A stretch of 64,000 nt of DNA from Octopus sinensis (Eukaryota): positions 134,106,001 to 134,170,000 of the forward strand of contig NC_043000.1 of the NCBI RefSeq assembly GCF_006345805.1, in the 5' to 3' direction. A program made the translations under genes and the position numbers. The notes beneath the pieces were generated by a model, which worked only from the letters and a program-made list of their open reading frames with translations, was not told the origin of the DNA and ran no database searches. The stretch's first letter is position 1, and each line of letters starts with the position of its first letter. Positions 35,401 through 59,457 of this stretch are shown here, piece after piece.

Positions 35401-38003
35401 CCTTAATGACATTAAATTCTGAATGGAGATAAACTAAAACTACTATTTCAATGTAGAATATTTCGAGCACACACAAACAGTCATTAGTTAATTTCATTTA
35501 ACATCTCTTTTTTCATACTAGCATGGCCTAAAGAGATGTGAAGATTGGGGGGGGGGGGACTGAAGCAGGATTTTTTATAGCCAGATGTTCTTGTCACCAA
35601 CCCTTATCTGCCTTTTCAAATAAGGGAATTTTTTTTCTTTTTTTTTTTATTCTAGAGGAATTCTAAAGTACAGAGGTAGCAGACAATGTGTTGGCAAGAA
35701 ATATCAACAAATGTCACAGGCTGAAACTCAGCCACCAGCCAGGACTCCACCATTTGTAACTGTAGCTCAATGTAGTTTATAAATGTCCACACAAACATAT
35801 GTATGCACGCACACTCCCATCATATTGTAACTTCTCGCACAACCACCCTTTTATAACAATAAATCTGTCCTGCATACTTTAACATCTCACCACACCTTGA
35901 ACATTCTTTTGCTCTGTGAATTATGAAGCAAGCTCACTAGTGCTGGTGGTACCTAACACACCCAGTGAAATAGTCGGTTAATCAAGCATATACAATGCAG
36001 GGATTAAGAGGACTCTCTAAAATTGCTGAGGACATGACAACACTAGTGCTAGCGCTACAAAAAATTGCACCCTGTATGCTTTATAAAGTGGTTGGTAGCA
36101 GGAAGGGCATCCAGCCATAGAAACCAAGCCACAACTGAGATACTGGAGGAGGATATGGTTCTCTGATCTGTGAGAGCCTGTTGAACTGCACAATCCATGC
36201 CAGCATGGGAAATGAATGTAATAATAATAATAATGAAATTATTGTATACAGTGCTCAGGTGCACCACAACTTGTCAAAAGTGCGTATAAAGTATATGCAG
36301 TAATATACAAATGTCTGGGAAGTGAACAGTGTATGAGTCAGATACATGCTTGCATGTGTATGGAGGGGAGAAAATCAGGTGTAGTGTTGGCGAATCTCAG
36401 GAAGCATGGAAGTTTTGAAGGATAAAGATGACGATGATGATATGGAGTGTTTCTTTCACTTTCCATAAAACAAATACCCCCAAGGAAAAATTTCCAGGTA
36501 CACAAGTAGAGAATAAAGTACCAGCAGTTGAACAAACAAACACAATAACTAAAAAGATAGGTTAAGTTTAACAAATACATCACCTAGTATAGTCAAATAA
36601 TCATTAGAGAACTCTTTCTTTAACACTTTTATGCTAGATTATAGGCTAAAATAGATTATTATTCAATTATTAAATATTACACACACACAACCAATTCTAT
36701 GTTCTAAAATTATATTAGAACAGTCAGCAAGGCTAAATCTTTACCAACAAGCTATAATTATCACTAAATCAATTCTCTATTCACCCTTTTATATTTTGCT
36801 TGGATTCGACTGATTGGAGGTCATGACGACCTCTCTTATATTCATTATTTTGTCTTGATTTTAGTAATTTTTTTCTTCTTTTTATATTTGTATTTATAAA
36901 TCTTAACTTTTTGGATCTGTACTTCTAATATTGCAAGATTAGAAAACATAGTAATAAAAAAAAAAGTTTAAATAAAAATATTTATAGATCGATAATAAAA
37001 ATACAATACTTAAAATTTAGTTTCTGAATTTTTGGAACTTACAAAAGATGGTGGAGGTTAAACAAGAAACCAAATTCACATTCTAATTCAATGTATCCTT
37101 ATCATTTTTTTCTTTAAAGTAGTTTGAAGAAGATTAAGAGATTAACATTAGGAACATGCTTTTTATCTTAAAATTTATTTCAATTTTATGGCATTTCCAA
37201 ATAATATTCTTCCATCCCAGGTATCTTTTTCCAACACAAATACAGTTCTTGTTATGTAACAGTAATCCATGTTCGGAAGCCAGTAATAAAAACAAAAAGC
37301 TAAAGTAGTATGCCCTTACATAATATAACAGTCAAAGGAATAATATGAGCAGAATGAGGAAATTAGATCCAACAACCTCATATACAAATTTATCTGACAA
37401 GCCTATATAGACACATAGACTAGTCAGATAAATTAGTGTGTCTGTTTATATAAGTGTGTGTGTGTGTGTGAGTGAGTGAGTGAGTGAGTGCACGCATGCA
37501 CAAACAAACATCACCAGATTGACTCGGTAAATGCAATTAGCTTTGAAATTGCACTTATCAAAACATTGTATTTAACTTTCTCATGTGGAAAATGATAGAT
37601 GGCAGAGCTATCACTGAATTCCTTATCACAGAAGCAGCACAAAATTACAGTAACTGCAAAGTTTGTTTTATCATTTTATCATTTAACATGCCCTACTAAT
37701 AGAACAATATAAACCAACCATTGTCCATAACAGACAGAAAGTCGGGGGGAAAAAATGCAAATAAAAATAGCATCATATCTACAAGAGGTGGTGTATTCTG
37801 TAAATGCACAAATATGTAAAAATGTATCTAACAAAATTTATTTCTGAGTGAAGAACAACACAAACTATGAGAATGAGATGAATAAATAATCTAATTTGAT
37901 CTTTTCAGTTATAAGAGAAGTGATTCTCTCTGTTTCAAAATCTCCATTAAGTGACATTTTAAAAAGTTCAATCTCACTTAAAATTGCAATGTTTTCATCT
38001 TGT

Positions 38004-38063
<60 letters not shown>

Positions 38064-41000: not shown

Positions 41001-41904
41001 GGTAAGTTTTAGGTAAAAAAAAATACTTAGATATGATTTTTCACATACCTGTTTCCCATTGCTAAAATCTTTTTGTTCCCCTCTAAGTATGTAATTTCTA
41101 CTTCTCCATTGAGAATCACAGACCAAGAGTCGAGCATTTCTCCATCTTTCATTACTTGAGTGCCAGCCTCCTTTACTTGTGCATAAACCATGACTGCACA
41201 CAGAGCCCGCCGTGTGGCCAGTGTCATGTTTGCAAAAGCCTGTAAAACAAAAAGGAATGGTAATATAGATAGATATATGTAGCCACAACAATAACCAAAT
41301 ATATATGATAACATCAAGAAAAACAATGAGCAATTAATTAAAATTCAACCTCCTGAAGTTTTTAACTCTTATAACATGGCTACATCACTATTGCTAGTAG
41401 AATAGAAAAACATTAATTTACATAACGATGGGTGTAAGTAATTTCCTTTGGTTTGACACTAGATATTCTAATCAGAGCAAAATAAACAACTGACTGTAGA
41501 TGGGGTATGTTACTGAAGAGACTGAAGGTGTACTGTATGTGGCAAAAGTAAAGAAGTGTGTGTGTGTGTGCATATATATATATAGAAAAACAAAAAAGAA
41601 AAAAGGCCTTGATAGGTATATAAGCAACAAACAAGTGTATTAGTTTGAAAATGAAAAAGTCTATTGTTTTCAGCCTATGCTCTTCAACAGAAAGGAATGA
41701 GAAATAAGCTAAGAGAAAATGAAAAAACGTGTAGAGTTCAGCAACCCATATATATGGGCAGGAGTGGCTGTGTGGTAAGTAGCTTGCTAACCAACCACAC
41801 TGTTCCAGGTTCAGTCCCACTGCGTGGCACCTCGAGGCTACTAAAGCCTCAAGCTGACCGAAGCCTTGTGAGTGGATTTGTTAGACGGAAACTGAAAGCC
41901 CATC

Positions 41905-41976
<72 letters not shown>

Positions 41977-44900
41977 TTGTGTGTGCCCCCAACATTGCTT
42001 GACAACCAACGCTGGTGCCTTTTATATCCCAGTAACTTAGTGATTTGGCGAAAGAGACTGATAGAATAAGTACTAGGTTTACAAATTATAAGCACTGGGG
42101 TCACTTTGCTCAACTACAGGCAGTGCTCCAGCATGGCTGCTGTCAAATGGCTAAAATAAGTAAAAGAATATATATATATATATATATACACGAGAGAGAG
42201 AGAGATGAAGGGATTTCTTTCATATGAGTATCCTGAAAAAAACTATAACGTAAAATTCTTATTTGGCACAAGGCCAGTAATTTTGAGAGATGGGGAATTT
42301 GATTACATTGACCCCATTGCCCAACTAATACTTATTTTATTAACCCCAAGAGGATGAAAGCCAAAATCAATCTCAGTGAAATATAAACTCAAAACATAAA
42401 GGTAGACGAAATACCACTTATCATTTTGTCCAGTGTGCTAATGATCCTACCAGCTCACCACCTTACTATAGAGTAATATTAGTAACACTGATGGGATTCT
42501 TAACTGTTTGATGCTTTCCTTGGCTTTTAATATTTGTTAAATAATGTTGCTAGTATCAACAAAACCTAGAAAAATTGAATACACAGGACTGGACTGGCTC
42601 CTGTGCAGGTGGCACGTAAAAAACACTATTTGAGCGTGGCCGTTGCCAGTACCGCCTGACTGGCCCTCGTGCCGGTGGCACGTAAAAGCACCCACTACTC
42701 TCTTGGAGTGGTTGGTGTTAGGAAGGGCATCCAGCTGTAGAAACTCTGCCAGATCAGATTGGAGCCTGGTGCAGCCATTTGGCTCGCCAGTTCTGAGTCA
42801 AACTGTCCAACCCATGCCAGCATGGAAAGCGGACGTTAAATGATGATGATGCTGATGATGATGATGAGTGTAGAAAAAAGAAAAGAAAGATTAAAATTCC
42901 CATCTCTAACAATGGACACAGAATTTTAAATGCCAGAATCTCTAGTGCCAAAATCTAAGTTAAATATCAGTTAACTCTTTTTCAACTTTTCATAGTGTAT
43001 CTGACTTAAAAGATTATTATTCATGGTATGAGATAAAATAAATAAATAATAAAAGTAAAATTAAACATCCTTATTAAATATGCACAGAAATGACACATCA
43101 ACAAGTGGTAGCACATTTTAATGACCACATGAGATAATAAATTTGACAGAACAAAGGGATAATTTGCCATTATCTTTAAACACCCACAAAACCAATAATT
43201 TAGCATCACTTTTCCATGCTAGCATGAGTCAGAGTGTATGGAGGCAGATTTTTTACACCCAATGGTCCTTCCTGTAGCCAACACTCGTTTATTTCTAAGC
43301 AAGGTAATATTTCACCATGCCCAAACATGATCTCACAGAATATTGGTTTCAAATTTTGGCACAAAGCCAGCAATTTCAGGGGGTGAGTAAATCAGTTGCA
43401 TTGGCCCTAATGTTCAATTGGTACTAATTTTATTGATCCCAAAAGGATGAAAGGTGAAGTCAACCTTGGTAGGATTTGAGCTCAGAACATAAGGATGGAT
43501 AAAAATAAAGGCACTAAGCATTTTGCCAGGCCTGCTAACAATTCTGCCACCTCAAAGAATATTGGAAATGAATAACACTACTTACATGACAGTCACATGG
43601 TGTCAAGAAAAGGAGAGTCAAACACAGAGTTTACATCTACCAAATCCATTCACAAGGCTTTGGTCAGCCCTAGGCCATTACAGAAGACACTTGCCCAAGG
43701 TGACATGCAGTGGGACTGAACCCAGGACCATGTGGTAGGCAAGCAAACATCTTACCACACAGCCATGCTTTACAAAATCTTAACTCAAAAATATAAATTT
43801 TCAAAACTACCAAATTAAATATTTTCCTACTCTACTCAACATAATTTCCACCGCTTTTACTCTTTTACTTGATTTGGTCATTGGACTGTAGCCATGCTGG
43901 AGCATCACCTTATAGGGGTTAGTTGATCAAATGGCACTCAGTACTTATTTTAAGCCTGCTACTATTTCTACTACTCTCTTTTGCCAAACTGCCCAGTTAA
44001 GGATCGTAGATAAATTGGCACTAGTTGTCAAATGGTGAGGGGGCAAAAATATACACACATATACCCACATGTAAACACACAGAGACATATTATATAGATG
44101 CGCACGCGCGCACACACACACACACAAGCTTCTATACAGTTTCCATTTACCGAATTCCCTCAAGGCATTGATAAACTTGGAGATATAGTACAAGATGTTT
44201 GTCCAATATGCTGCACAGCGGGACTGAACTCTAAACCACAAGGTTGTGAAGTGAGCTTCTTAACCACGCAGCCATGCCTATGTAGAATGTTGGATTAGAG
44301 TCTCAAATAAGACAAGTTATATTAATGGAATCTTCTCAATTTCTTTCTAATTATTTTCTAATATGTTGTAAGTGAACCAAAAGTATTTACTTTTTTTTGA
44401 AGAAAATTGGCACCATTTCATAAAATATGCTAATTACTAACAAGAATTTTTCGTCTTGATTGTTAAAAAGCCCCAGAGAGTAGTGGTTACAAAGCAAAGA
44501 ACCTGTAATAATTTGTTTAAATGGATTTGAATTTTTGAGAAATAGTTAATCAGGAACAGGCGTTTATAGAAAACGTGTAATCTATGAGTTGGGTGGATGC
44601 CAATCTCGGGTCAAAGTGATCAAGTCAAATCATTGATTTTCAAACAGATTTACTACAACTACCAATTATCAGAGGAAAATACACAAAGAAAAAAAAAAAT
44701 TTTTCAATGTGTTTTATGTAATTTTGGCAACTGTTTCACACAATCTTACAAAGAGTTCTTGAAAATGAAAGTGCAGTTTTTTTTCTACAACGCTGCTGTA
44801 AATGTTAAAATAGAAAGAGAATGTGTGTTCAATATAACACGGAAGATTAATACCATCTGAATATATTTTTTATATAAATCAACCCCACTGCCTTTATCCT

Positions 44901-45018
44901 TGGCAATAATCAGCAATTTAAAAGTATATCTTACCCCTATACTGAATACTGCAGTAAATCAAGCAAGCGCTAATTATACATAATTCAGTTATTCATAAAA
45001 CTACGAGAGAGAGAGAGT

Positions 45019-45067
<49 letters not shown>

Positions 45068-48000
45068 CGCACATGCATATGCATGCACACACACACACAT
45101 TACACTTTTTATCTTTTCCTTGTTTCAGTCATTGGACTGTGGCAATACAGAGGCACAGCCTTGAAAAGTTTAGACAAACAAATCAACCCCAGAACTTCTT
45201 TTAAAACAAAAATTTGTTGCCCATTTTCTCAGTCACTCTTGCTGAACAGCTAAGTTATAGGGGTGTAAAAATGGAAAAAAAAAACACCAACTGTTAAGCA
45301 ATGGTGGAGGGATACATACACACAAACACACAACAGGCTTCCACACAGTTTCCATATGCTTACAAGGCATTGGTTGTGCCCAGGGCTATAATAAAAAACA
45401 CTTAAATGCCATGCAGTGAGACTGAACATGGAATCACATGGTGGCAAAACAAGCTTCTTAACCATACAGACATGCCGGTGCCTATATAGCCTAGTTATTT
45501 TACACCCATTTTTCCAAGTGTAAGTGGGTTAGACCGACATTCCTAGCAAAGAGCCCACCACCTGTAGTCCTTTATCATATCCTTGATGACGTTAATTATC
45601 CCACAATCAGCTTTTGCCACTTTGTCACATGCCTGCAGGCCACATTGTTTGGAATACTTGACACCTTTTTCACCCAATCAACATACTAGCACATTAGAGT
45701 TGATTCCCCTTACATCTGGTTTTCCTCTCAGTTAACCTGTGATCCCTCATTCACGCATGCTAACATTACACACCTAGCACAACAGCTCACCTTAGCAAAT
45801 CCTCTGTACTCTCAATATTTATGTTTTGCTATCATGCAATACCATAGTTCATACAAAAGTATCTTTCACATAAAGGGTAAAGTTCTATATCGCCATTAAA
45901 ATTAGTAACTCCCTGAACAGTTTTCACCCTGTATTTACTCTGGCTACTACACTTTCACAACATTTACTTCTGATTAGGTTGCCTATGCAACAGAAGTTTT
46001 CAAATGCTTTTAACCCTTTCGTTACCAACCCGGCTGAAACTGGCTGTGGCTCTGTAGTACAAATGTCTTGTTTTCATAAGTTCTGAATTAAAATCTTCCA
46101 CCAAACCTTAGTCCCAATTTATGTTCTTAACACTAGCTGAATGATGACTAAGTTATTTTACTAAATTCTATGTTATATTTAAAATAATTGAAAGAAACAC
46201 AGAGCATCTCAAAATAAATATGGTAACGAAAGGATTAATGAGCTTTATGAGCAGTTTCAAAAATTTCATGAGTATACCCTCATACATCTACTACATATGA
46301 AGTATTACTTCTCTGTCAGTTTCCTATAACCCTACCATTACTTTTATGCACTCACAGTTTACATAGGATTCATAGTATAGAGTGCCTTCATATACCTTTT
46401 CTGCATATCAAGAATCACTTACCATTTAGCAATAGAGTTCTGTATTCTTTCTTGCTAACTTTAACTCTTCATTAGAAGTTCCTACCAACAATCAGTTTAA
46501 TTCTTCTTTTATAGCTCTGAGAGCCATAATAAATAGGAACGGGCTGAGAACTGAACCTTAATGAACGCCAATCTGTATGTTAAATTGCTCACTGATCTCA
46601 TTGCTAACTCATCTTGCTGACAGTAACTGCATACTTGCATAGTTCCTGCAAGACATTCATCTACATACAATTTTTGCAGCAGCTACCAGACTACAAAGCA
46701 TGCTACTCTGTCAAGGGTCTTCAGGACTACAAATGCTAGTTATAGAAGTCTTCTTTTAGCTAAGGGCTTGTCCTGCAGTTGTCTTGCTAAAAAGAAGGCA
46801 TTAGTGGCTCCCTAACTTGGTACAAATCGAAGTTGTATGTCATCTAATTCACTCTTAATTAGCTGAGCTATGATGTTCTGCCATGTTTAAAGTTAGTCAA
46901 TCAATTTGATGCTTCTGATCTATATATTTTGTGCTTCCTTAGTTGCTTCCTTCTACAGAATCTTTTTGGCTCTTGTAACAGTTGACAATGCAGCTGCTCT
47001 GCCAATCATTAGGCAAAGTACTTTTCTACATTACCCGACTGACTATACAGTTAACTCATATCTTACTTAGCCAAATATTTTTACTATCTCTGACTATCCT
47101 TGAAAGATCTGCTGCTTTTACACACACAAATACACACAGAGTCAAGAAATGCAGAATGGCTGTGCTGCTGAAATAATCTAAGAGTTCAATAGACTTGTAG
47201 ATCTGGAAATTTGCATATAAATTATTGGAATAAATATTTGAATTATCTTCTCAATGGTGAAATGAAATAGTCAGGTTAACAAAAACATGCAGTGAAACTA
47301 TTCTTGCCTGAGGGCAACAACATCTTGACAACATAATAACAAGGATATTAATCATATTGCAATCATTAATTCAACATTTTAGCTTCACAGCTGCTAAAAG
47401 CACAATGAAAATTCTTTTCTTGTTTTACTTTATGCTTTTATAATTTACAAAGCATAAATAATTTAAATCATTTGCTTCAAATTTCTATCTTGTCTTATTC
47501 ATTAAAGATCTTTATTTTGGTATATTATTAAAAGAACAAAAAAAAGGAAGAAATATTTACAGAAAAGTGTCTCATAAAATCCAAAAGTGTTTCAATATCA
47601 TCTTCAGTCCTCTTGTCTGGATCTTTCTTCAGACTCTCGTATACAATATCTCGTGCTGTATAGAGCTGGAAGAGAAAACAAGAAAGTATATAAAAGACCA
47701 TTTAACAATTGTAAAATAACAAAATCAAGAAATTAACAATAGATGGTCTGAAAAAATCTCAAAGACACCAAATCCTACAAGGAAATTAGTTGAAAATTAG
47801 AAAAAACAAATGAGGAGGGAAAAATTAATATGAAAATTATAAAATGACTCAAGTTTACATTCTGGTCTGTGTTCTCTCTACATAGAGAAATCTATAGAAA
47901 TTAAATATTATCAAGATAATGACCCTCAGTTTATCATTAACCTTTTAGCATTCAGATTACTTGGTCAAATGTAGTAGTTATTAACATTGTTTTGAATTAA

Positions 48001-51000
48001 TCATGTATTACCTTGTAGCTGTGAGATTTCAACAATGTAATTATATATTTTAAGAATGACATTGTAGGATAGGTGTAAGAGGCCAAATCTGGCTAGCTTG
48101 AACATAAAACATGTAGACTATTTGGGTTGGATAAGGCCAGTTTGAATGCTAAAGGACTAACATGACCAACTGTTATCACTGCTGGGCTAATAAGCTGTTC
48201 CTACCTTAGTACCTAATTTAAACATAGGGACTTTTTCTGTTTTGGAAGAAGAGCAGAGCCCATGACATTTCACAGGATTCAATAATATGAAGGGTAAAGG
48301 GAGGAACTATGACTGGCTATCCTAAGTCTAGAGAACTGATTCAAATACTTGCAACAGATTCAACTCCGCTAAAGGTACTCAAGAGCAATATGTTGGTGTT
48401 AAAGCAGACACCAATAAAGTCTACTACCCAAATAACATGGTGAACCTGATAGACCTGCATGGTGTCTATCAACCCAGCTACACTTAAAATGAATGATTGG
48501 ATCAACCTGAGGCTACAGTAGAAGGTCCTTGCCCAAGGCACTACATAGTGAAATTGAAACCATGGGATTGTAATGCCAATTTCTTAAATGCATGGTCATT
48601 CTTTTCATGCAGGTAAAGTTTTAAAGTTTTGCCCAAAGAGCTCAAAAATTCATATTATTGAATTGCGTGTATACTGCAAGTTCTTTGACTAAACCCTAAT
48701 CAGCTACTGGACCTTTTTTTTTCCTCCTATCAGGAATGCAGATAAAACACAATCAATAATGTAATACTTACAAGTTTCAAATTAGTACATAACAGTAATT
48801 AAATATTGATTATTATAGTTATCATAATTAGGAAATGCATCAGGTAGTAAACACCTAGTTATTTGACTATCAGTTCATATACAGCCATGAGGATATCTGA
48901 ACTCCTAATGTAAGAGTAGGGCAAAATATATCAATAAGTTATTATAATTAGGTCAGTAAATAATTCTAGTAATCTAAAAAGAACCAACTGATCATGCAAT
49001 CATGTACAACATGGAATTTCCTAAATTATTAATGAAAAACTAGTCAAATAAAAGCATAGTATTTTATTAGAAATATTTTTTTGAATCATATGGAATTCAT
49101 GAAAAGAATCTAGGGAAAAGGAATTTCTAACATATTAACAACTGTATACATACTAGCTAGTCAGTCTAAGAATTCTTATTGAAAACAAAAAAATTTTCAG
49201 TAAAACTAATCACATCACAAAATTACATGAAGGTGTGTGTATTAGTAGACTGAAAATTACTGGAAAATAGGAACTTTTTGAATACATAATATAAAATTCT
49301 GATATAACTCTAAGGCATGTAATGAAAGGTATAGAAATCTTTTATTTGAACCTGATCAAAGTGAATGGGAGCGTGTGTATGCGTGTGTTAATGCACATGT
49401 GATGTATGCTATTGGAGCTGTTAATGTAGTTGACTGCTTTCCACTTTAACTCTTTCCAATCCAAAACACCTGAGACTGTATAAATCTTGTTTGAAATCTG
49501 TATTCCTACTTGAAAGAATAATATCAGGTTTCAATAAGTAAATTACTCTATTTCAAATACCAGCTTAATATACCTATAAATAACTTTATTATTTTTCTAA
49601 ATCACTTGTAAGAAATAAATTAGTTTAGTGAACAAAGATTTCACTTTAAACGTTACTAAGAAAGAACCCTGACTTCTATTTCTATTTAGTTAAGTTTCTC
49701 TATCAAACGCTAAAGCCTTTTTATTTTTACATATAAAATATAAATGCAGAAGCATTGAGAGATATATAATTATATCATTTATCAGTGTATTGCAAAGCAA
49801 ATGTAACTATACATAAGAGCTCGTAAAATACTAAGTTAAAACTCTCTTACATAGAAAAAATGCTACCAGCAGGATTTGAACCATACATTTTCAGTGACCA
49901 TGTTGGACATGCTAACCAACTGCACCAATGTAACCTTTGGGCTCTCTTCCAATAAATTGGAAGCTTAAATCTAGAGTTTTGTTTATTTCTGTGTTCTAGC
50001 TTTCATGAAATTTGTTAGTTTCTTCTACGGATATACACTTTAAAAGAATTATTTACATATGTATACCTGCATCCAGGTGCTATTTTTGATAAATTCACTT
50101 CTGACTTGTTTCCCCTTGGAGCAAATCAAATGGCCTTTTAATTAATATGACAGTGTTTTAAGTATTTGAGCCAGCAAACTTCAACTTATTTCAGTCCATT
50201 AGTGTAACATTCTATCAAGGCTACAAGGCAAACAAAGCCTCATTATATACAATTAAAGTTATGCTATACAAATGACACAGAATATCAAATAGCAAACTGT
50301 AGTGCAGAACATATAACAAGCTGTATCTGACATTTGCTTATTAAAATAAGCCGAGATCTTAAAACTTGATTTTGTCATGTTTCCTTCCACCTCGTTTAAA
50401 GAGAGAATTGTAACCCTCATCTCAAAATCTTAGTTCTTTGCAGCTGGCATGACACTATTTTGATTGCAACTAATTGTCAAGTGTCAAATGAATGACGTGC
50501 ATAACAAAGAACAAACTGTTAGATTCAGTTGTATAGAACAGATAGTTTGTTTAATGCAGCTTTTGCAGTGGTTTTGCTGCAAAGATAGCAAGCCATATGG
50601 TAACAAGCTTCATCACATAACTAGGTTTAGATCTTCTTGTAATTATTTTTCAACATTCCAGATTTAATAAAGTACCAGTAACCTACAAATGCTTATTTAT
50701 TACCTTCAAAATTGGCTACACCACTAAGTGGAATGGAAAGAAGTAACCTATTTCATGTAAATAATTCTTTTAAAGGTTACTTTGGTGCAGTTGGTTAGCA
50801 TGTCTGACATGGTCACTGAAAATGTATGGTTCAAATCCTGCTGGTAGCCTTTTTTCTATGCAAGAGAGTTTTAACTTAGTATTTTACAAGCTCTTATGTA
50901 TAGTTGCATTTGCTTTGCAATACACTGATAAATGATATAATTATATATCTCTCAATGCTTCTGCATTTATATATATGTTAATATTTTCCATTAAGCTTTG

Positions 51001-53997
51001 TTCAAATACAATATATTTCTTTATTATACCACTAAAGGATATACAGAAATGGGGTTATGATTAGAGAATGTTAACATGTTCTGGGTTGTATAATAATGGT
51101 CCAATATTGAAATTTGTAGGGAAAATTGCTATATAAATGTCTGATCAAAAAATATGAATAATCACTTGTCTAACAATGGTGAAAATAAAATAATTGATAT
51201 GTTTTGGCTGAGAATGTGTGCTTCTTAAAGAAGCAAACTATTCAACAGTAACATACCTGAAGAATAGTTGACAAGGAAATACTGAAAAAGCCATTTTGCA
51301 AATTGAAGAGCAGAAAGTGAGAGAAAGAGAGAGACAAACAGTCAGACAGATGAAAGGAATGTATCATGTTCATAGATATTTTAACTTGAGAAGTTAAATA
51401 ATTATACTACTTTTGAAAACTAGTTGTCTTTCAGCAAGGCATGAAGGTCCATATCCCTAATTTTTCATTACCTTTTAGGGAAAAGGGGTGAGAGAGAGAA
51501 AGAGAGATATAAAATTGATACTGAATCACAATTCAAACTTGTTAACTTGATTACGCAACCTGATGGTTTACAGAACTGGATTTGAATCATTTCACATGAA
51601 CTCTATATTTTAAATTCACCAACAATATGAAGGTTTCATATCACAATATCTATTAACCCTTTAGCATCTAGATTATTCTGTCAAAATGTAATGCTTATTT
51701 ATCCACATTGTTTTGAATTAATCATGCATTACTTTGTGGCTTCAAGATCTCAGTGATGTGATTGTTTATTTTTACAATGACATTGTAGGGTAGGTGTGAG
51801 ATGTTGGATCTGACCAGTTTGAACCATAAAAGTAGAATATTTTGGCCAGATATGGCCAGTTTAAATGCTAAAGGGTTAAAAGGAGAAATGACTGTTACAG
51901 GTATTCACCAGGAAATAATATCAACCTAAAACATTTTTAAAATTCTAAACACAAAATAAGTTTGTATGGTGTCATAACTTTTGTATGTTTGAAATATCAT
52001 GAAGTATTTATGAGCTTCCTTCGTTAGCTACTCCTATTAATCAATTAGGAAATCAACCTCAGAAGAATAAAAATTACTATATTAACTAAGGTTGGGCTTG
52101 AAATAGAATTACAGGCTCCGAGCATATAGTGAACATCATACCAATTCTGACATCTGAAATCTTAGCCAACAACAGGATATATTCATGATTTTAAGTAGAA
52201 CATGACACTTATGACAAAAACTTTAGTGAACACCCTAAAATATGTGTTGGTGGTGCATGTTTTACAAGTTAGTCATGATATATAAAAATACATAAAAAGA
52301 TCTATATTAGTAAAGTAAAATCTTTGTCATGAATATAACTAATAGAAAGTGGTAACTATGAGTGACAAAATGAAATTTAATCTGAAAAGGAAAGAGAGAA
52401 ATATCCATAAAAGTCAAATTAGAATTGAAGACACTGACCATTTTCATGCCAGCAGAACTCATTAAAGAATAAGTAAATGCTTAATTTCTTAATTAATTAA
52501 TTAAATATCAAGATTGTTTAAGATTATAAAATTAACTGACAGAAAAAGTACTTCCCCAATTTAAAACATTTTCAAATAAAACAGTTATTTTATTATTATT
52601 CTATTGAGTTACTGACATATTTTATTTTAGTAGTGTTATATGTGTGTACATTTGATAGTATATCTTTCCTACTCTAGGCACAAGGCCTGAAACTTTTGAG
52701 GCGGGGGAGCAGTCGATTAGATCGACCACAGTATGACCCCGAAAGGTTGAATGGCAAAGTTGACCTTGGCGGAATTTGAACTCAGAACGTAACGGCAGAC
52801 GAAATACCTATTTCTTTACTACTCACAAAGGGCTAAACACAGAGAGGACAAACCAGGACAGACAAACGGATTAAGTCGATTATATCGACCCCAGTGCGTA
52901 ACTGGTACTTATTTAATCGACATCCAAAAAGATGAACGGCAAAGTTGACCTCGGCGGAATTTGAACTCAGAACGCAGTGGCAGACGAAATGCTGCTAAGC
53001 ATTTCGTCCAGCGTGCTAACAATTCTGTCAGCTTGCCGCCTTTACAGATGAAATACCACTAAGCATTTCACCCGGCATGCTAACATTTCTGCTAGCTCGC
53101 TGCCTTTGATAGTATATCTGTGCCTCTTTGTCTCTCCACTGAATTCAGATGTTTAAATATTAAACATAAGTGCACATGAAATGTAATTTGAAATACCTGC
53201 ATAAAATTATGTAAATGTTTAGAACAGAAATGAGTGTTTTCTTTTTTTTTTTTATCTTTTATGTTGGCTACAATATGATTATGAAATCATTGTGATTGGT
53301 GTAGTGATATAGACCTGGTGGCAGTAAAACTATTGTAACAGTTAGGAATCACAATATCCAACCAGCTTCACATTACAAAGGACGAGAAAGTATTCAAGAT
53401 GCCAGCAATAGAACAAACTTTCAGGATGCAATAAGTCAGTTTAGGCTTACGTGTTGTAGGACATGCTAGGGAGAAAGTGCAAGAAAGGGTTGAACGAGGG
53501 GAAAAGGAGTGAGAGAAAACTGGATAAAAAAATGAGGGAAAGACAGGAAAAAAAAACAATGGAATAACAAAATCAGATTTGAGAAAATAAAAAAAAAAAA
53601 ACAAGAAGAAATCAAGACAATGTGCCAAAGAAAGGAAAGTGAAAGGAGAGAGAAAGAAAGATAAAAGGAAAATAATATGAGACAAAGGTAGGGTATAGAG
53701 AGAAGGAAACCAAAAAGAGAGAATATATAGAAAGGCAATCTAAAATACCCAATGCTGATATAATACAACTAGAACAGAGTGTTTTGCCAAGGGACATGAG
53801 AACTAACTACAACCAGAGAACACCATTATGATCAGGAGAACCAGAGGAATAATACACAGTGTACTATAACAAAACACAAACTAATATATAGATAAAGAGG
53901 AACAAATTAATATTTATTTTCAGTTGTTTACTTCTTTTTGTTGCTTATATGTAAGGCTTTTATTAACAGGTACAATCTTCATTAAGACTTAGTAAAG

Positions 53998-54028
<31 letters not shown>

Positions 54029-54308
54029 GTATTCTAGATCCACTTCGGCTGATTTGATTTTACAAATTGGTTTTACACACAAATTAGGGGATAACCTAAA
54101 ATGGCACTCATCAGAAGGGCTGGTATGGAAAGTATCTTCCATCTTGGCACTATCTCAATTGCAAAACTGTTCGGTAAAAATCACCTGAAATGGATCTACA
54201 ATACTGTATAGTATAAATATCAATATACCCACTCCATTGAGGAATATATTAGAGCCTGTTTTTTATGACCTGGGTTCTTACATATACATACATACATACA
54301 TATATATA

Positions 54309-54343
<35 letters not shown>

Positions 54344-55387
54344 ATCACAAACAAGAAACACAATAGCATAAATGTAATCAGTGCTACTGAGATTGAAAAC
54401 TGGTGGGGGGAGGGGCATTTTTGTTTTGTTACAGTGCAGAACAAGCAGAAAGGTATATTGCATTTTTATTGTGTAAAAGACAAAACACAAAAAACTAAAC
54501 CTCACCTCCTGGAAAAGATCAAATCGCTGAAGGGGAAAAAAAAGAATATAGAATGCATAACAGGTTCTTTGATGAAGACAGAGAGAATGAGAGACAAACA
54601 AAGAATAAGAGAAAATAACCATTTAAAACAGACATAGGCACCCTTTTTTTTTTTTTTGGAGACGTAGTCTACATGAGACATGGCTCATCATTAGACAGGC
54701 CACACTACTAAATATATTTTAAGTAATTTTTCTTTAAGTGTGCCATTCAGAAAGTCCTATGAGCTACAGGATACCCATGGCTGATTTAAAAGAACAAATA
54801 CGTAGTTTGGAAGCAACAAATAAAAATGTCACAAAGAAAAGTTGTCATTTATAATAAATTCCAGATTCCAGCAATACAAATCATTATCAACATCATTATC
54901 ACTTCCATCATCCTTCTCCTCCTCCTCCTTCAACATCTGCTTTCCATGCTGGCAAGGGCTGAACTGATATCAGATTTTTTTAATTTACAATTAGCAACCC
55001 ATAAAAAAAAAAAAACCAAGTTGAAACACAATTACTTCTATAATACTGGAATTTAAAAAAAAAAAAAAATTCTGATATTATATTTGTCATTATTTTTAAG
55101 AAGCTCCAAAATAACTGAGAGTTAATAAAATTATCAAGAATCATAATTAGATTTCTTTTCTTGTTCAAATTCCCAGAAACAAAGAGATATTACTTGATTC
55201 TCAACTATCTTGAATGCATTAATTGCCAAATAGTTCATTAGATATATTTCCATCATAAATCATCTTAAGAGTAACTGGCAATAGAAAGTAATTATTTTCT
55301 AGTGTGTTATCTGAGAAACTAATTAACTCTCAAGTTCACTTTCACATCTGTAACTCTTCATAGCCAAATAAAATTTATAGTTAAACT

Positions 55388-55430
<43 letters not shown>

Positions 55431-58400
55431 CAGGGGATATATGAGGACACTTAATTATTTGTATATTACTCTCTTCAAACCAATTTAAAGGTTTTTATTT
55501 ATTTCAAATCCCCCCATGGGAGATAAAATGCTAACACAAGAAATGAAAACACACGCAGTCATTGATGCCATATATGCAGAACACAGTGATTTAGAAATTG
55601 CCAACTTTCTAGATGTTGCAAGATCTTTATACACAAAATTTGGATGGAATTAGAAGCCTCTGGTAGGAATGCTTTGACTGTATCAAAGAGAAAAAAAACA
55701 TTCTAAACATTCAAACACTATAAGAACATCACAATTCATCCAACAGATCTAAAACATTATTGATGATGATCCTGGAAAATCAATGAGGGTCATCACCAAA
55801 GAACTTCAGGTGTCAGAGTGGACTACCATAGCTGTGATGCATGAGGACATTCAATGAAAAACATAAGTACTGAGAAGTCAGTTCATGTCTGCAAGGGCAC
55901 AGGAAAACCATTTCATCCTTGCCAAGTGGTTACTTAGCAAAGTTAAGAACTCTCATGAACATGATTCTTCTCTGATGGGAAAAACTTTGGCCCAGTCTAT
56001 CAGGAGAAATGGCATATGGTAATATGCAGATCCTTCTGATGTCCTAGAGTTATGTATACTGTTTTGAACAATTGTGATGGTGTTAGGAGTGGCAAGAAAT
56101 GAAGGTCATGTCATACCATCTCACATCTTTCTATGAGGTCTTAGAATTAATGCTACTGAATACAGTCGTTAAATTCTGGATGGATAAAGTACACAGTAGA
56201 AGGCTCAGCATCTTTTCACAAAGCCCACATAACTCAAGAATGGCCATCAGGCAATTTTTATGCTCATTTAGACCAAACTTGTGCCCTCCTCCAAACTCAC
56301 CAAATTTAAATTCAATGGGCTGCTATGTTTGGAGAATAATAGAAAGGAAGACTAATCAACATCCCCACAATACCATTACTTCACTGAAGGCTACTACTAT
56401 CCAGGTGATGCCCAAAATGAATAAGGACCATTTAGTGCAGGGATGTCAATGATTCCAGTCCGGCATTAAAATAGTAAGAGAAACTGGAGGCAGATTCATA
56501 GAATAATCTTATAACAAGGCTTTTCTACATATGCACAAATTTTTTTTGAAATCTGAAATACAACTGATTTTTGCTAGATTAAAGTCATTTTCTTAAATTA
56601 CCAAATATGTCCTCAAATATCTCTCACACACTCTCTCTCTGTCTCGGGGGAGGGGGGGGGGGTGCAGCACCAAACTAGTAATACTTGCACACCAACAACA
56701 TTCGACAATATACAAAACTAACACTTTCACACCAAAAACATTGTGCAATGAAATACCAAACTAACAACATTCACACTAACAACATCCTGTCGTATTTCAC
56801 AAGGTAACACAATACATACATGGCTTTTATTACTTTTAGTGTTACCACAGCTAATCTAACAGTTACGCCATAACCCTAGCCTATAATTTGTTGCTCTGAA
56901 TGAAGACAATTAAATGCAAAAGACTACGCTGTGAAGAAAACAAAGATGTAACAATGCTGAAGAGCTACAAAGAAAAAAAGTAAATTAAATGTTACCTTAC
57001 ACCTATTAATTCTAATTAAGTTGACAGTGAAAAACAACAACGTAGCCAGTTAATTACATTGAACATTTTGAGTGTTATTTAAAGTAAATAAAGACTCTGA
57101 TAATGATGATGACAAACACAGCCAATGCGATAGTGACAACAATATGTGTATGTAATCAACAAAATATTTAAGAAAGAAACTAAATATTACGTTTTCCTTG
57201 CAATAAAGTAAATACCATTTTGGTGAAGTGAATTACAATAAAACTCTGAAGATACAGAAAAAAATAATTTAGTTTCTAATTATTTAAGTCAACAAAAATG
57301 CAAAATTACTAGCATATGATTTTTTTTACCCCCTTAATTTATTTCTCCCATACACTTAGCTCCTATGTTATTTATATTATGACTGATGTAGGTTGGTATG
57401 AAGAAAGAAAAATTAATTATAAGCATATGGTATAGGTAAGAATATAACTGCTTTAAAAATGAAGTCTATTATTTTAAGTAGTTTGGTTACAAATTCAGCA
57501 ACTTCAGAACAGACAACAATTAAGCAAACATAATTTTGTGAGTTAGTGAATAAATGTGTATGTGTACTTGAATGTATGTGTGTGCATGAATGGTAAGTGC
57601 ATATGTGATTGTGGTGAAGAAGTTCGTCTTCCAATTACATGGTCTTGGGTTCAGTCACACCACATGACACTTTGGGTAAGTATCTTCTACTAACTATAGC
57701 CCAAGCCAATCAAAAGCCTTATGACTAGATTTCTGTGTACATGCGGATGCACTTGCCTCCATGTCTTGACATTACATAAGTTGTAAACAAGTGTCACTGT
57801 CATACAGGCAGTGTTATTTGTTTGCTATTTTCCATGAAAATGTCCAGTCATGAGAAATATTACCTTGCTTGGAAACAGGAAGGGTATATGTGCATTCTTT
57901 TATTTGTTTCAGTCATTTGACTGCGGCCATGCTGGAGCACCGCCTTTAGTCAAGCAAATCGACCTCAGGACTTATTCTATCGGTCTCTCTTGTTGAGTCG
58001 CAAAGTGAAGGGGACATAAACACACCAGCATCAGTTGTCAAGCGATGTTGTGGGGAGCAATCACAGATACACAAACACACACAGATATATATATATATAT
58101 ATATATATGTACGACAGGCTTATTTCAGTTTCCTTCTACAAAATCCACTCACAAGGCTTTGGTCGGCCTGAGGCTATAGAAGACACTTGCCCAAGGTGCC
58201 ACGCAGTGGGACTGAACCTGGAACCATCTGGTTGGTAAGCAAGCTACTTACCACACAGCCAGAAAATTTACCTGAATAACTTCCATGTGGCCCATGCATG
58301 GAAATGTAGAGGATAAACAATAATGATGTGGGCACAAACGAACAAAATTTATGTGTATATTTACAGTGTATTGTCAAATTAATTTATTTGTGCAAGCAGT

Positions 58401-58857
58401 ACGTGTTTGCATGTATATGAAGTATTTGTAAGTGTCTGAACAGTGTGTCTGTGTTCAAAAGCAACAAAGAGAGGACTATACAGTGGATAACTAGATGACT
58501 ATATAATAACAACCTAAGACCCCCCAAATTAGTATTAGTACCAGATTTGTGTAACATTCTACAACAATGTACTTAATTCTACTTTGTATAATAGACATAA
58601 CAGAGAACAAATTCCAAGAACAGTGTGACATAATACAATAGCTACAAACATATGCTTGGAAGCTGACCAGTGATATCCTATGCTTAACAAAATCAAGTAG
58701 TAGTGAATTTCGCATTCCACTAACTTGAATACACAAACACACACATGCTGAAAACAAAAATTAACAGAAAACTCTTCGTCAAAGAGACTTCCAACTGACC
58801 AGAAATCAGACCACGCATTTGAATTTATATATATATTTATATATAGAGATATATATG

Positions 58858-58899
<42 letters not shown>

Positions 58900-59457
58900 T
58901 GTATAAATCTAGCTTATGAAATGCATTTATGCCTAATTTTATACATGGTGCTTGGACAACAACCAGTCTGAATTAACTTATTTTCAACAATCATACACAT
59001 AATACACTAAATCTAATAGCTCAGAGGAACAGTCAAAAATCAACTAATTAATTAATTAATCTTTCTATATAATTTTTAATTACATTTCAGAGGATGTTTT
59101 ATTCCATTAGATCTTAGTTGTCTTTTCTTCTTCAGTAAAATCTTTCCAGTTTTTGAAACAAAAAATAACAACAAACAACTACAATACAATAAATGAATAT
59201 AATTTCAATAGGGAAAAAAAATGTCTTACCTCTGAAGATTCTCCATAACCTTCTTCTTCATCAGAATCTACCATGCTTTCTGTCAGGCCGCTGTACTCGA
59301 GGTCAACATTTTCCTGCCCGTCTATAGAGGATTGCATTACATCTGACCCAGAGTATGCACTTGACGTGTCACTTGCCCGAGAATTCCGCTTCAACCAATT
59401 TTCTCTCAAACAGTGGTCAGGCAGCCGAGTGATATGGTTGGAATATTCTGGAGCCAT
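11711..59457 (-). CDS. RAPGEF2: Rap guanine nucleotide exchange factor 2/6 (PDZ-GEF) ortholog, multi-exon gene span (22 core exons; termini uncertain)
   Basis: Manually spliced exons with GT-AG ends and matching phases total 3259 nt up to the 11854 donor. Motifs typical of RAPGEF2/Dizzy: [107 protein letters not shown]. Confidence 0.96.
11854..12075 (-). CDS. RAPGEF2: RAPGEF2 exon, C-terminal region ([14 protein letters not shown]...[18 protein letters not shown]); reads through to a stop at 11711 if the donor is unused
   Basis: cttcttcCTAG acceptor; [12 protein letters not shown] resembles human SPQALKKILSLS; G|GTAAG donor at 11853. Confidence 0.88.
13305..13403 (-). CDS. RAPGEF2: Candidate 99-nt cassette exon ([32 protein letters not shown])
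   Basis: CTCCTCCATCCAG acceptor, A|GTAAGT donor; phase 1-1; open frame. Confidence 0.5.
13472..13549 (-). CDS. RAPGEF2: Candidate 78-nt cassette exon ([25 protein letters not shown])
   Basis: TCTCTGTTTTGTTTCCAG acceptor, CAG|GTAGTC donor; phase 1-1; open frame. Confidence 0.4.
14696..14803 (-). CDS. RAPGEF2: RAPGEF2 exon, C-terminal region ([10 protein letters not shown]...GPKF)
   Basis: tttCAG acceptor, G|GTATG donor; 108 nt, phase 1-1, open frame; joins the next exon to give [18 protein letters not shown]. Confidence 0.85.
17391..17490 (-). CDS. RAPGEF2: RAPGEF2 exon, end of CDC25-HD ([11 protein letters not shown]...SLQCEPP)
   Basis: CAG acceptor, GTAAG donor; 100 nt, phase 0-1. Confidence 0.94.
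18524..18655 (-). CDS. RAPGEF2: RAPGEF2 exon (DVSNMC...NAKKMYEE)
   Basis: CAG acceptor, GTAAG donor; 132 nt; NAKKMYEE motif. Confidence 0.92.
18808..19177. repeat. 19-bp minisatellite, about 19 copies (GCTGTAACAGACTTTGTAG)
   Basis: Direct head-to-tail tandem units with few substitutions and no spacers. Confidence 0.95.
19979..20125 (-). CDS. RAPGEF2: RAPGEF2 exon, CDC25-HD ([15 protein letters not shown]...[14 protein letters not shown])
   Basis: CAG acceptor, GTAAG donor; 147 nt, phase 0-0. Confidence 0.95.
20787..20870 (-). CDS. RAPGEF2: RAPGEF2 exon, CDC25-HD ([16 protein letters not shown]...QPPM)
   Basis: CAG acceptor, GTGAG donor; 84 nt, phase 0-0. Confidence 0.95.
21500..21627 (-). 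CDS. RAPGEF2: RAPGEF2 exon, CDC25-HD ([14 protein letters not shown]...[14 protein letters not shown])
   Basis: CAG acceptor, GTAAG donor; 128 nt, phase 1-0. Confidence 0.95.
22519..22618 (-). CDS. RAPGEF2: RAPGEF2 exon, CDC25-HD ([14 protein letters not shown]...KHFIKIA)
   Basis: CAG acceptor, GTAAG donor; 100 nt, phase 0-1. Confidence 0.95.
23376..23610 (-). CDS. RAPGEF2: RAPGEF2 exon, end of RA and start of CDC25-HD (YYLKDN...IEPTEYIDD...FEE)
   Basis: TAG acceptor, GTAAG donor; 235 nt, phase 2-0. Confidence 0.95.
24105..24212 (-). CDS. RAPGEF2: RAPGEF2 exon, RA domain ([27 protein letters not shown])
   Basis: CAG acceptor, GTAAA donor; 108 nt, phase 2-2. Confidence 0.94.
25177..25241 (-). 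CDS. RAPGEF2: RAPGEF2 exon, RA domain ([21 protein letters not shown])
   Basis: CAG acceptor, GTGAG donor; 65 nt, phase 0-2. Confidence 0.92.
25335..25733 (-). mobile_element. Non-autonomous Helitron
   Basis: Minus strand reads A|TCTTTATATA...CCCGAGCAACGCTGGG hairpin...CTAG|T: 5' TC, 3' CTAG, AT target site, internal tandem duplication. Confidence 0.8.
25757..25991 (-). CDS. RAPGEF2: RAPGEF2 exon, linker and start of RA domain (SNPDL...[17 protein letters not shown])
   Basis: CAG acceptor, GTAAG donor; 235 nt, phase 2-0. Confidence 0.93.
27240..27498 (+). mobile_element. Non-LTR retrotransposon 3' fragment with (GAT)n tail
   Basis: [25 protein letters not shown]...[12 protein letters not shown], then TGATGATGATGA. 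Confidence 0.75.
27699..27942 (-). CDS. RAPGEF2: RAPGEF2 exon, PDZ-RA linker (FRELLTEKK...[16 protein letters not shown])
   Basis: CAG acceptor, AG|GTTTG donor; 244 nt, phase 1-2. Confidence 0.9.
29910..30018 (-). CDS. RAPGEF2: RAPGEF2 exon, C-part of PDZ domain (ILEVNG...[11 protein letters not shown])
   Basis: CAG acceptor, GTAAG donor; 109 nt, phase 0-1. Confidence 0.95.
30436..30639 (-). CDS. RAPGEF2: RAPGEF2 exon, N-part of PDZ domain (KMNSQL...GLKRGDQ)
   Basis: CAG acceptor, GTATG donor; 204 nt, phase 0-0. Confidence 0.95.
31601..31987. repeat. Long imperfect palindrome (about 190-bp arms, short loop)
   Basis: TTAGATATAGCTTTATAAGCATTTTATGGT...ACCATAAAATGCTTATGAAGCTATATCTAA, with complementarity continuing to the centre near 31798. 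Confidence 0.92.
33162..33269 (-). CDS. RAPGEF2: RAPGEF2 exon, REM domain ([17 protein letters not shown]...VQE)
   Basis: CAG acceptor, GTAAA donor; 108 nt, phase 0-0. Confidence 0.95.
33886..34400. mobile_element. TA-flanked MITE (second copy about 38077-38586)
   Basis: TACTGTAAATTCTCAAGTATA...TATACTAGAGGATTTACGGTA inverted termini; the two copies share internal sequence. Confidence 0.8.
34489..34671 (-). CDS. RAPGEF2: RAPGEF2 exon, REM (RasGEF-N) domain ([10 protein letters not shown]...LKMK)
   Basis: CAG acceptor, AAG|GTTAT donor; 183 nt; [16 protein letters not shown]. Confidence 0.95.
34852..35086 (+). repeat. Direct duplication of a dimeric tRNA-like SINE relic (second copy about 39569-39800)
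   Basis: Near-identical 230-bp blocks including the flank CATAAGGCAAACATAGGTAAAA. Confidence 0.8.
38872..38976 (-). CDS. RAPGEF2: RAPGEF2 exon ([21 protein letters not shown]...RKGHIVIR)
   Basis: CAG acceptor, GTAAG donor; 105 nt, phase 0-0. Confidence 0.95.
39143..39260 (-). CDS. RAPGEF2: RAPGEF2 exon, cNMP-binding-like domain (FGVSPSLD...[21 protein letters not shown])
   Basis: TAG acceptor, GTATG donor; 118 nt, phase 2-0. Confidence 0.95.
39885..40162 (+). mobile_element. Cephalopod SINE central-domain fragment
   Basis: GC-richer block GTGGCTGAGC.CTCCACA...GTAGTTCTCGGG.AGATTCAGC.TGACACAGAGTGTGACAAGGC, recalled from cephalopod SINEs and not verified by search. Confidence 0.55.
41049..41239 (-). 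CDS. RAPGEF2: RAPGEF2 exon, cNMP-binding-like domain ([14 protein letters not shown]...MGN)
   Basis: CAG acceptor, AG|GTATG donor; 191 nt, phase 0-2; [10 protein letters not shown] motif. Confidence 0.95.
41757..42165 (+). mobile_element. tRNA-derived SINE family B with internal (TA)n/(TG)n (others about 11150-11280, 16575-16745, 24535-24690, 43630-43768, 43855-44280, 45110-45485, 57600-58260, 60515-60650)
   Basis: GGCAGGAGTGGCTGTGTGGTAAG A-box, GGTTCAGTCCC B-box, shared GCCTTGTGAGTGGATTTG.TAGACGGAAACTG body. Confidence 0.85.
45540..47110 (-). mobile_element. Heavily decayed RTE-like LINE reverse transcriptase region
   Basis: Minus-strand remnants [12 protein letters not shown] (GVHQGSVLSP), QLRFVPS*GATNAF and EDP*QS (DLEKAFDR-like); interrupted by a MITE at 46010-46238. 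Confidence 0.7.
46010..46238. mobile_element. Second TTAA MITE family, nested in a LINE relic
   Basis: TTAACCCTTTCGTTACC...GGTAACGAAAGGATTAA. Confidence 0.8.
47561..47665 (-). CDS. RAPGEF2: RAPGEF2 exon ([35 protein letters not shown])
   Basis: CAG acceptor, GTAAA donor; 105 nt, phase 0-0; resembles RDIVRDCLEKDP..RTDDDIE of RAPGEF2. Confidence 0.92.
49738..50972. repeat. About 200-bp inverted repeat pair (49738-49938 and 50772-50972) with tRNA-like inner ends
   Basis: The arms are near reverse complements; the right arm starts GGTTACTTTGGTGCAGTTGGTTAGCA...GGTTCAAATCCTGCTGGTAGCC. Confidence 0.9.
51654..51879. mobile_element. piggyBac-type TTAA MITE (other copies 18014-18405, 26141-26583, about 28020-28161 partial, 29522-29749, 47937-48160)
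   Basis: TTAA|CCCTTTAGCAT...ATGCTAAAGGG|TTAA termini. Confidence 0.85.
53451..53465 (-). CDS. RAPGEF2: Candidate 15-nt microexon (HVLQH)
   Basis: CCCTTTCTTGCACTTTCTCCCTAG|CATGTCCTACAACAC|GTAAGC; phase 0-0; very long pyrimidine tract; UGC at -16. Confidence 0.62.
54506..54526 (-). CDS. RAPGEF2: Candidate 21-nt microexon (RFDLFQE), with an internal acceptor that would give a 3-nt exon (E)
   Basis: TTCTTTTTTTTCCCCTTCAG|CGATTTGATCTTTTCCAGGAG|GTGAGG; phase 0-0 like the host intron; no stop. Confidence 0.6.
55427..56632 (+). mobile_element. Decayed Tc1/mariner-superfamily transposon, maT (DD37D)-like
   Basis: Imperfect TIRs (GGGGATATATGAGGACA / TGTCCTCAAATATCTCTC). Remnants: [53 protein letters not shown] (SPDLNPLDY-like). 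Confidence 0.75.
59230..59457 (-). CDS. RAPGEF2: RAPGEF2 exon, first seen in window (MAPEYS...GESSE)
   Basis: tttCAG|ATG acceptor and GAG|GTAAG donor; 228 nt, phase 0; contains [13 protein letters not shown] and [14 protein letters not shown]. The acceptor implies further upstream exons. Confidence 0.9.

What the first reader, a model, noticed from the sequence alone, without database searches (positions are those of the whole stretch)
53451..53465. 15-nt frame-preserving microexon candidate with a neural-microexon-type splice signature
Seen: inside the 11.6-kb phase-0 intron upstream of the cNMP-like domain, the minus strand has a pyrimidine-rich tract of about 250 nt (53470-53720). About 50 nt free of AG precede TTGCACTTTCTCCCTAG|CATGTCCTACAACAC|GTAAGC, encoding HVLQH. 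Known: a UGC close to the 3' splice site, a long pyrimidine tract and an AG-exclusion zone mark SRRM3/4 (Srrm234 eMIC) neural microexons, a programme ancestral to bilaterians. Inference: this may be a neuron-specific microexon in octopus PDZ-GEF that gene predictors would miss.
Basis: partly seen in the sequence, partly recalled or inferred. Interest (0 to 1): 0.72.

Follow-up and report, generated by a model that had tools for sequence, protein, structure and literature searches.

The report
Tandem microexons in octopus PDZ-GEF
An octopus Rap-signalling gene (PDZ-GEF/RAPGEF2) has an already annotated, optional 21-base mini-exon, and 1 kb further on a second 15-base exon-like site behind an unusually long pyrimidine tract, which is likely but not shown to be a rarely used neuron-specific exon of a known class.

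Summary
Observation confirmed: a 15-nt TAG|…|GTAAGC unit (HVLQH, in frame) at 53465-53451 (−) in octopus RAPGEF2/6. An unnamed cephalopod-like cluster has a different 8-aa insert at the same junction; other animals sampled have none. For the 15-nt site: its 250-nt tract is the most pyrimidine-rich in 528 kb scanned and an outlier among 20 genome-wide motif matches; both halves of the eMIC regulator domain are in the genome. Against: the local motif alone is at chance level (20 versus 17 decoy hits); HVLQH is in 0 of 369 proteins; the laid contig skips it in 4 of 4 runs (tissues unknown); a stronger upstream CAG would give a 69-nt stop-containing exon. Best reading (0.5): a low-inclusion neural eMIC-type microexon, second of a tandem pair, lengthening a disordered linker before the cNMP-like domain. 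Rivals: silent look-alike (0.3), poison exon (0.17). Conservation and neural inclusion untested. The scan noted similar octopus microexons in other genes. New member of a known kind.

The parts
53451..53465 (-). ME-B: candidate 15-nt in-frame microexon (HVLQH); inclusion not observed
   Evidence: absent from proteins and from the laid contigs
53445..53450 (-). 5' splice site GTAAGC shared by the 15-nt and 69-nt forms (PWM 8.4; the gene's 19 training donors 4.9-13.4)
53479..53481 (-). TGC at -16 from the acceptor AG (UGC motif)
53468..53723 (-). ~250-nt pyrimidine tract (84% Y, one AG, 11 UCUC); top 250-nt window in 528 kb
53451..53519 (-). Alternative 69-nt form from the upstream CAG (53522-53520); has an in-frame TAG, so it would be a poison exon
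   Evidence: acceptor PWM 10.8 versus 6.0; AGEZ 218
54506..54526 (-). ME-A: 21-nt cassette microexon (RFDLFQE), TGC at -31, AGEZ 38, most UCUC/CUCU of 21 exons compared; internal CAG allows a 3-nt option
   Evidence: in 14 of 16 octopod proteins, skipped in P0073 and P0084
59230..59457 (-). Upstream exon encoding the acidic, disordered linker (ends ...[10 protein letters not shown], phase 0)
47561..47665 (-). Downstream exon encoding the first helices of the cNMP-like (CNB-B-type) domain
11854..59457 (-). RAPGEF2/6 (PDZ-GEF) gene body in the window; 5' exons lie beyond the window

Best explanation
The 15-nt site is likely a weakly included, probably neuron-restricted microexon of the eMIC (Srrm234) type, second of a tandem pair whose first member is the annotated 21-nt cassette exon 1,040 nt upstream in octopus PDZ-GEF. 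Shown: both units are flanked by AG/GT and keep the frame; the 21-nt exon is optional in gene models; the inserts fall at the end of a disordered acidic linker, directly before the first helix of the cNMP-like domain. Inferred: by default the weak TAG acceptor is skipped. Where the eMIC isoform of Srrm234 is made, it would act through the long UC-rich tract and the UGC at -16 to help early spliceosome assembly, adding HVLQH with or without RFDLFQE. That would lengthen the linker by 5, 7 or 12 residues and could tune packing of the regulatory region on the GEF domain, or access to the neighbouring acidic Ser-rich motif (speculative).
For: Tract is the top 250-nt pyrimidine window in 528 kb and ends at an in-frame AG...GTAAG unit; chance per tract about 0.6%, about 0.04 expected over the 6 long tracts found. 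Sole outlier for tract strength among 20 genome-wide core-motif matches (Y250 0.84 versus 0.46-0.61; 1 AG versus 5-22). Weak acceptor, UGC and UCUC-rich tract match the eMIC code in PMC8797185 (passage). The same intron already hosts a cassette microexon and an unnamed cephalopod-like cluster has another insert there (5 with, 1 without), so the site tolerates inserts; pLDDT <50 up to residue 116 of P0082. Both eMIC halves are encoded, with compatible phase. A zebrafish rapgef2 microexon exists (PMC12626420 passages), and neural exons recur in the same gene families (10.64898/2026.09.05.749416 section 10).
Against: HVLQH in 0 of 369 proteins, including 0 of 16 octopod proteins, while the 21-nt exon is in 14 of 16; these 16 come from few annotations, and only one isoform named O. 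sinensis (X18) was seen. In 4 of 4 laid runs the one contig on the downstream exon extends 2 matching bases, which fits the upstream exon or ME-A but not ME-B; tissues unknown, and contigs drop rare forms. Core motif alone is at chance level, 20 versus 17. AGEZ and TGC are not rare among the gene's ordinary exons. No CUAAY branch point within 150 nt. A stronger competing acceptor lies 54 nt upstream. Pyrimidine tracts are strand-biased here (13 versus 1), which raises the chance rate on this strand.
Confidence: 0.5

Rival explanations
1. Silent look-alike: a low-complexity CT-rich intronic tract that by chance ends near an AG and a GTAAG. The only real microexon of this intron is the 21-nt one.
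For: No inclusion in proteins or in 4 of 4 laid contigs; core motif at decoy level; the tract has 70-77% look-alikes at 5 other places, none covering the exon; 5 other long tracts in 264 kb have no exon-like end.
Against: The coincidence of the strongest tract with an in-frame unit is unlikely (about 0.04 expected, about 0.01 with TGC); outlier among 20 matches; lies in an intron with proven microexon use.
Confidence: 0.3
2. Poison exon: the tract mainly serves the upstream CAG (53522-53520); with the same donor this gives a 69-nt exon with an in-frame TAG that would send the mRNA to nonsense-mediated decay. The 15-nt form is minor, or the regulated alternative.
For: Upstream acceptor scores higher (10.8 versus 6.0), has a 218-nt AG-free zone and Y50 0.86; translation contains a stop; decay would explain absence from proteins and assemblies.
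Against: No TGC within 60 nt of that AG; no long contig piece over 53451-53720 among those listed (list truncated); the downstream AG with TGC and an exact in-frame length would be unexplained.
Confidence: 0.17
3. The GTAAGC donor closes an alternative first exon with a CT-rich leader, producing an N-terminally shorter protein.
For: Long CT-rich stretch ending at a good donor.
Against: The ATG inside the unit is out of frame with the next exon (read); no listed contig piece covers the tract; no protein starts there.
Confidence: 0.03

Closest known systems
eMIC/SRRM3-4/Srrm234-dependent neural microexons (PMC8797185; 10.1101/2024.09.17.613571)
   Same: 3-27 nt, frame-preserving, weak 3' site, UGC near the AG, long UCUC-rich tract, AG exclusion zone; eMIC domain present in the genome
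   Different: No CUAAY branch point; tract far longer than the gene's other acceptors; competing upstream acceptor; inclusion, neural bias and eMIC dependence not shown
Annotated 21-nt cassette exon of octopus RAPGEF2 (P0074 = XP_029635860.1, P0002, P0084)
   Same: Same intron, phase 0, TGC and UC-rich tract, same insertion point in the protein
   Different: It is in gene models and has a strong acceptor and weak donor; ME-B has a weak acceptor and stronger donor. No sequence similarity between the two (814 of 1,000 shuffles score as high), so not a duplication
Vertebrate rapgef2 neural microexon (PMC12626420)
   Same: Microexon in the same gene family
   Different: Not at this junction as far as seen: the 22 proteins with spacing 20 (vertebrate sequences) show no insert variant here; its position was not read from the paper; convergent rather than orthologous (inference)
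Splicing-factor-controlled poison exons (e.g. REST exon N; recalled, from no call)
   Same: An in-frame stop in an optional exon, if the upstream CAG is used
   Different: Here one donor would be shared by a poison 69-nt and a productive 15-nt form; unobserved

Membership tests
eMIC-dependent neural microexon | Length 3-27 nt between canonical splice sites, frame preserved | tested here: met
   15 nt, TAG/GTAAGC, phase 0, no stop
eMIC-dependent neural microexon | UGC between branch point and AG | tested here: met
   TGC at -16; also in 5 of 20 ordinary exons within 35 nt, so weak; present in only 74-79% of known targets
eMIC-dependent neural microexon | Long UCUC-rich polypyrimidine tract and AG exclusion zone | tested here: met
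   Y250 0.84, 1 AG in 250 nt, AGEZ 52, 11 UCUC
eMIC-dependent neural microexon | Weak 3' splice site | tested here: met
   PWM 6.0, below all 19 training acceptors (7.9-19.4; self-trained, so inflated)
eMIC-dependent neural microexon | Strong branch point (CUAAY in flies) | tested here: inconclusive
   No CUAAY in 150 nt; YUNAY at -48 and -63; octopus consensus unknown
eMIC-dependent neural microexon | eMIC domain encoded in the genome | tested here: met
   PF15230 over cut-off at C11337; second half at C2298; on separate scaffolds, so linkage is inferred from phase
eMIC-dependent neural microexon | Spliced into mRNA | tested here: inconclusive
   Skipped in the laid contig of 4 of 4 runs and in 369 of 369 proteins; methods miss rare forms and tissues are unknown
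eMIC-dependent neural microexon | Neural-enriched inclusion and dependence on eMIC | not testable with these tools
   No tissue-labelled raw reads, no perturbation data
eMIC-dependent neural microexon | Conservation of exon and flanks in related species | not testable with these tools
   No other cephalopod genome held; peptide not found in proteins
RAPGEF2/6 (PDZ-GEF) | cNMP-like, RasGEF_N, PDZ, RA and RasGEF domains in order | tested here: met
   Pfam on P0074 and P0073, RAPGEF6 cNMP structure 2d93 E 4e-40, exon map
Cassette microexon (ME-A, 21 nt) | Both inclusion and skipping forms exist | tested here: met
   14 with, 2 without among 16 octopod proteins; these are predicted gene models, not reads

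The most novel reading that the evidence does not exclude
The linker before the cNMP-like domain of PDZ-GEF is a cephalopod-specific microexon hotspot (7-aa and 5-aa exons in octopus, an unrelated 8-aa exon in another lineage, none in other animals sampled). At the second site one donor is shared by two acceptors, so that eMIC would switch the gene between a decay-targeted 69-nt poison exon and a productive 15-nt microexon in neurons.
Probability: 0.12. Interest if true: 0.58.

Novelty: new member of a known kind. Interest (0 to 1): 0.33.

Why it matters
If included, it is one more neural microexon missing from the octopus gene models seen, in a Rap1 activator whose zebrafish microexon deletion has a behavioural phenotype (PMC12626420). 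With the 21-nt exon and the unrelated 8-aa insert it would be a clean case of repeated microexon gain at one protein site within cephalopods, testable with one RT-PCR. The class, regulator and recurrence pattern are already described, so the surprise is modest.

Tried and rejected
No RNA holder on record was listed (runs are 'RNA?' guesses); this is no evidence either way. The laid stretch lacked the upstream exon, was swamped by SINE-like repeats, and laid nothing in the bin of the 21-nt exon either, so lack of cover at ME-B is uninformative; only the 2-base extension argument was used. Contig lengths upstream of the junction could not tell whether ME-A is included. Search for shorter proteins across the junction gave 3 hits, none spliced through it. 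No octopus counterpart of the 8-aa insert in the intron (best AG/GT-flanked BLOSUM score 6). ME-A/ME-B duplication rejected. No RNA structure around ME-B (z +1.1). The long-read annotation of PMC9699675 (data S1) could not be read and may already contain or exclude the exon; bioRxiv supplements of 10.64898/2026.09.05.749416, which cover O. bimaculoides exons, were not seen. Torres-Mendez 2019 is not held. One search gave only chance hits. AlphaFold draws ME-A as a helix extension (H104-125) but at pLDDT <50, so this was not used. One search stopped with an error after its feature table and was rerun as with 19 of 23 exons (3 unrefined boundaries and 1 doubtful donor dropped).

Full report
Observation. 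The unit is as described: minus strand 53465-53451, TAG acceptor, GTAAGC donor, HVLQH in phase 0. TGC sits at -16, the AG-free zone is 52 nt, and the 250 nt upstream are 84% pyrimidine with one AG.

The gene. The upstream exon found 71 proteins named RAPGEF2/6 or unnamed. P0074, named Octopus sinensis RAPGEF2 X18 by its source, maps exon by exon onto the minus strand from 59457 to about 11854, with 5' exons beyond the window. Domains: RasGEF_N, PDZ, RA, RasGEF by Pfam and a cNMP-like domain matching RAPGEF6 2d93 and Epac2. PMC8534922 (passages) states that this domain in RAPGEF2/6 lacks the nucleotide-binding residues.

Octopus proteins carry seven extra residues, RFDLFQE, at the very junction. 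They come from a separate 21-nt exon at 54526-54506 (ME-A), 4,703 nt after the upstream exon and 1,040 nt before the candidate (ME-B). ME-A is in 14 of 16 octopod proteins and skipped in P0084 (O. bimaculoides X3) and P0073 (Argonauta). It has TGC at -31, AGEZ 38 and the highest UCUC/CUCU count of 21 exons compared (10; ME-B is second with 5). An unnamed Logan cluster, 85% identical to octopus, has a different insert, LSSEMTGM, in 5 proteins and lacks it in P0090. That insert neither starts with Val nor ends in an NAG codon, so it is inferred to be a cassette exon too. Of 369 proteins fetched, 327 could be measured: linker spacing is 14-20 in 308, 24 in the 14 ME-A proteins and 25 in the 5 unnamed ones; 42 lacked an anchor. 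Inserts here thus look cephalopod-specific within this sample. HVLQH is in 0 of 369.

Is ME-B more than chance? Two tests point in different directions. The local core (TTGCA, ten pyrimidines, AG, 3-27 nt, GTRAG) has 20 matches in the genome, against 17 with a decoy donor; 5 of the 20 are one repeat family and 12 are multiples of three. AGEZ >=52 occurs in 8 of 20 and a near TGC in 5 of 20 ordinary exons of the gene. So UGC plus AG-free zone prove little. The extended tract is exceptional: top 250-nt window in 528 kb; only 1 of 1,185 YAG...GTRAG pairs passes a strict, post-hoc filter; and among the 20 genome-wide matches ME-B has Y250 0.84 against 0.46-0.61. A random first AG is in frame with a GTRAG within 27 nt in 0.64% of 20,000 trials; over 6 long tracts that is about 0.04 expected, about 0.01 with TGC (72 of 347 pyrimidine-rich 32-mers). 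This does not correct for selection across a 2.7-Gb genome.

Transcript evidence. Four of 24 listed runs were laid on 47450-54800. In each, one long contig (571-4,833 nt) covers 47560-47667 with no mismatch, and its depth accounts for the whole first bin. The two extra bases fit an upstream neighbour ending in AG, which is true of the upstream exon and ME-A but not ME-B (matching tails 2, 2, 0). So the prevailing form skips ME-B in 4 of 4 runs. Tissues are unknown, RNA status is a guess, and contigs drop rare variants. Earlier unchecked notes of this scan say that 6- and 9-nt octopus microexons are in public models (e1-10337601, e1-9998845), which, if right, makes absence from the models count somewhat; e1-9531156 describes a skipped look-alike. 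Only one isoform named O. sinensis (X18) was seen, so others may differ.

A competing acceptor. The single AG in the tract (CAG, 53522-53520) has a 218-nt AG-free zone and scores higher than the ME-B acceptor (10.8 versus 6.0; 19 training acceptors 7.9-19.4). With the same donor it gives 69 nt with an in-frame TAG, a poison form that protein databases and assemblies would under-report.

The regulator. PF15230 (SRRM_C) passes its cut-off at G000:C11337, in an Arg/Ser-rich exon ending ...GSPSHLDKRRIT plus AG before a GT. A motif search (motif recalled, not from a call) found one match, at C2298, an exon starting T then ARKRPVPYHRP, Ser/Arg-rich and ending in a stop. The phases fit; the pieces lie on different scaffolds, so linkage is inferred. 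PMC8797185 (passages) lists weak 3' sites, long AG exclusion zones, UGC, UCUC-rich tracts and CUAAY branch points as the eMIC code and places its origin in bilaterian ancestors. 10.1101/2024.09.17.613571 (passages) finds UGC in 74-79% of targets and stresses 5' site strength. ME-B meets all but the CUAAY.

Likely effect on the protein. The AlphaFold model of P0082 (ME-A included; 60-sequence alignment, mean pLDDT 69.8) has pLDDT <50 for residues 1-116 and confident structure after that. The inserts therefore end a disordered acidic linker just before the first helix of the cNMP-like domain, about seven residues before the start of the Epac2 alignment. In EPAC1 the regulatory region is latched to the catalytic region through Q168-D750 (PMC12268604 passages); that this residue lies near the equivalent position is recalled, not tested. 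A 5-, 7- or 12-residue extension could tune such packing or a nearby acidic phospho-motif; this is speculation.

Comparison and novelty. It works like an eMIC microexon by architecture; membership is unproven because inclusion, neural bias and dependence were not testable. Zebrafish rapgef2 has a microexon with a movement phenotype (PMC12626420 passages), and recurrent neural-exon gain in the same gene families is described for 20 bilaterians including O. bimaculoides (10.64898/2026.09.05.749416 abstract, passages, section 10; no mention of RAPGEF in the main text). Searches (listings only) showed no paper on octopus RAPGEF2 microexons. Unread supplements (PMC9699675 data S1; the bioRxiv tables) may already list them.

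Verdict. Observation confirmed; interpretation partly supported. Odds: real low-inclusion neural microexon 0.5, silent look-alike 0.3, poison exon 0.17, first exon 0.03. The solid result is the neighbouring annotated 21-nt cassette exon and a cephalopod-restricted insertion site. New member of a known kind; interest 0.33.

Noticed in passing
window 54508-54506 (-): An internal CAG in the 21-nt exon allows a 3-nt exon (GAG, Glu) with the same donor; not seen in any protein.
   Followed up: partly
window 13403-13305 (-): 99-nt cassette exon ([10 protein letters not shown]...) present in P0074, P0072 and P0073 and absent from most other isoforms.
   Followed up: partly
window 15445-15440 (-): 6-nt exon look-alike with Y50 0.86 and AGEZ 51, no TGC; no matching indel in 22 aligned proteins.
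   Followed up: partly
G000:C11337:11167-11301 (-) and G000:C2298:1405-1580 (+): The two halves of the eMIC domain of Srrm234 lie on separate scaffolds; cwf21 hits are on three other scaffolds.
   Followed up: partly
L004, about 3 kb beyond the window end (extended coordinates 67234-66962, -): Exon with a poly-Gln/His tract that varies in length among cephalopod proteins.
   Followed up: no
extended coordinate 144221 (-), about 80 kb beyond the window: 27-nt exon-like unit with TGC and GTAAGT on the gene's strand, possibly in a large 5' intron.
   Followed up: no
window 9700-10630 (+) and 56087-56449 (+): Mariner/Tc1-like transposase relics, judged by eye from translations.
   Followed up: no
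window 2130-2522 (-) and 27216-27383 (+): LINE-like reverse-transcriptase C-terminal fragments, judged by eye.
   Followed up: no
window 51632-51877 and 52616-53107: High-copy SINE-like repeats; thousands of contigs from each run lie on them.
   Followed up: no
window 18716-19207: Intronic tandem array of about 60-nt units with long open frames on the minus strand.
   Followed up: no
L036, L038, L040, L041, L043: One repeat family carries a ready-made TGCA-pyrimidine-AG-18/21/22 nt-GTAAG unit, a possible source of exonisation.
   Followed up: no
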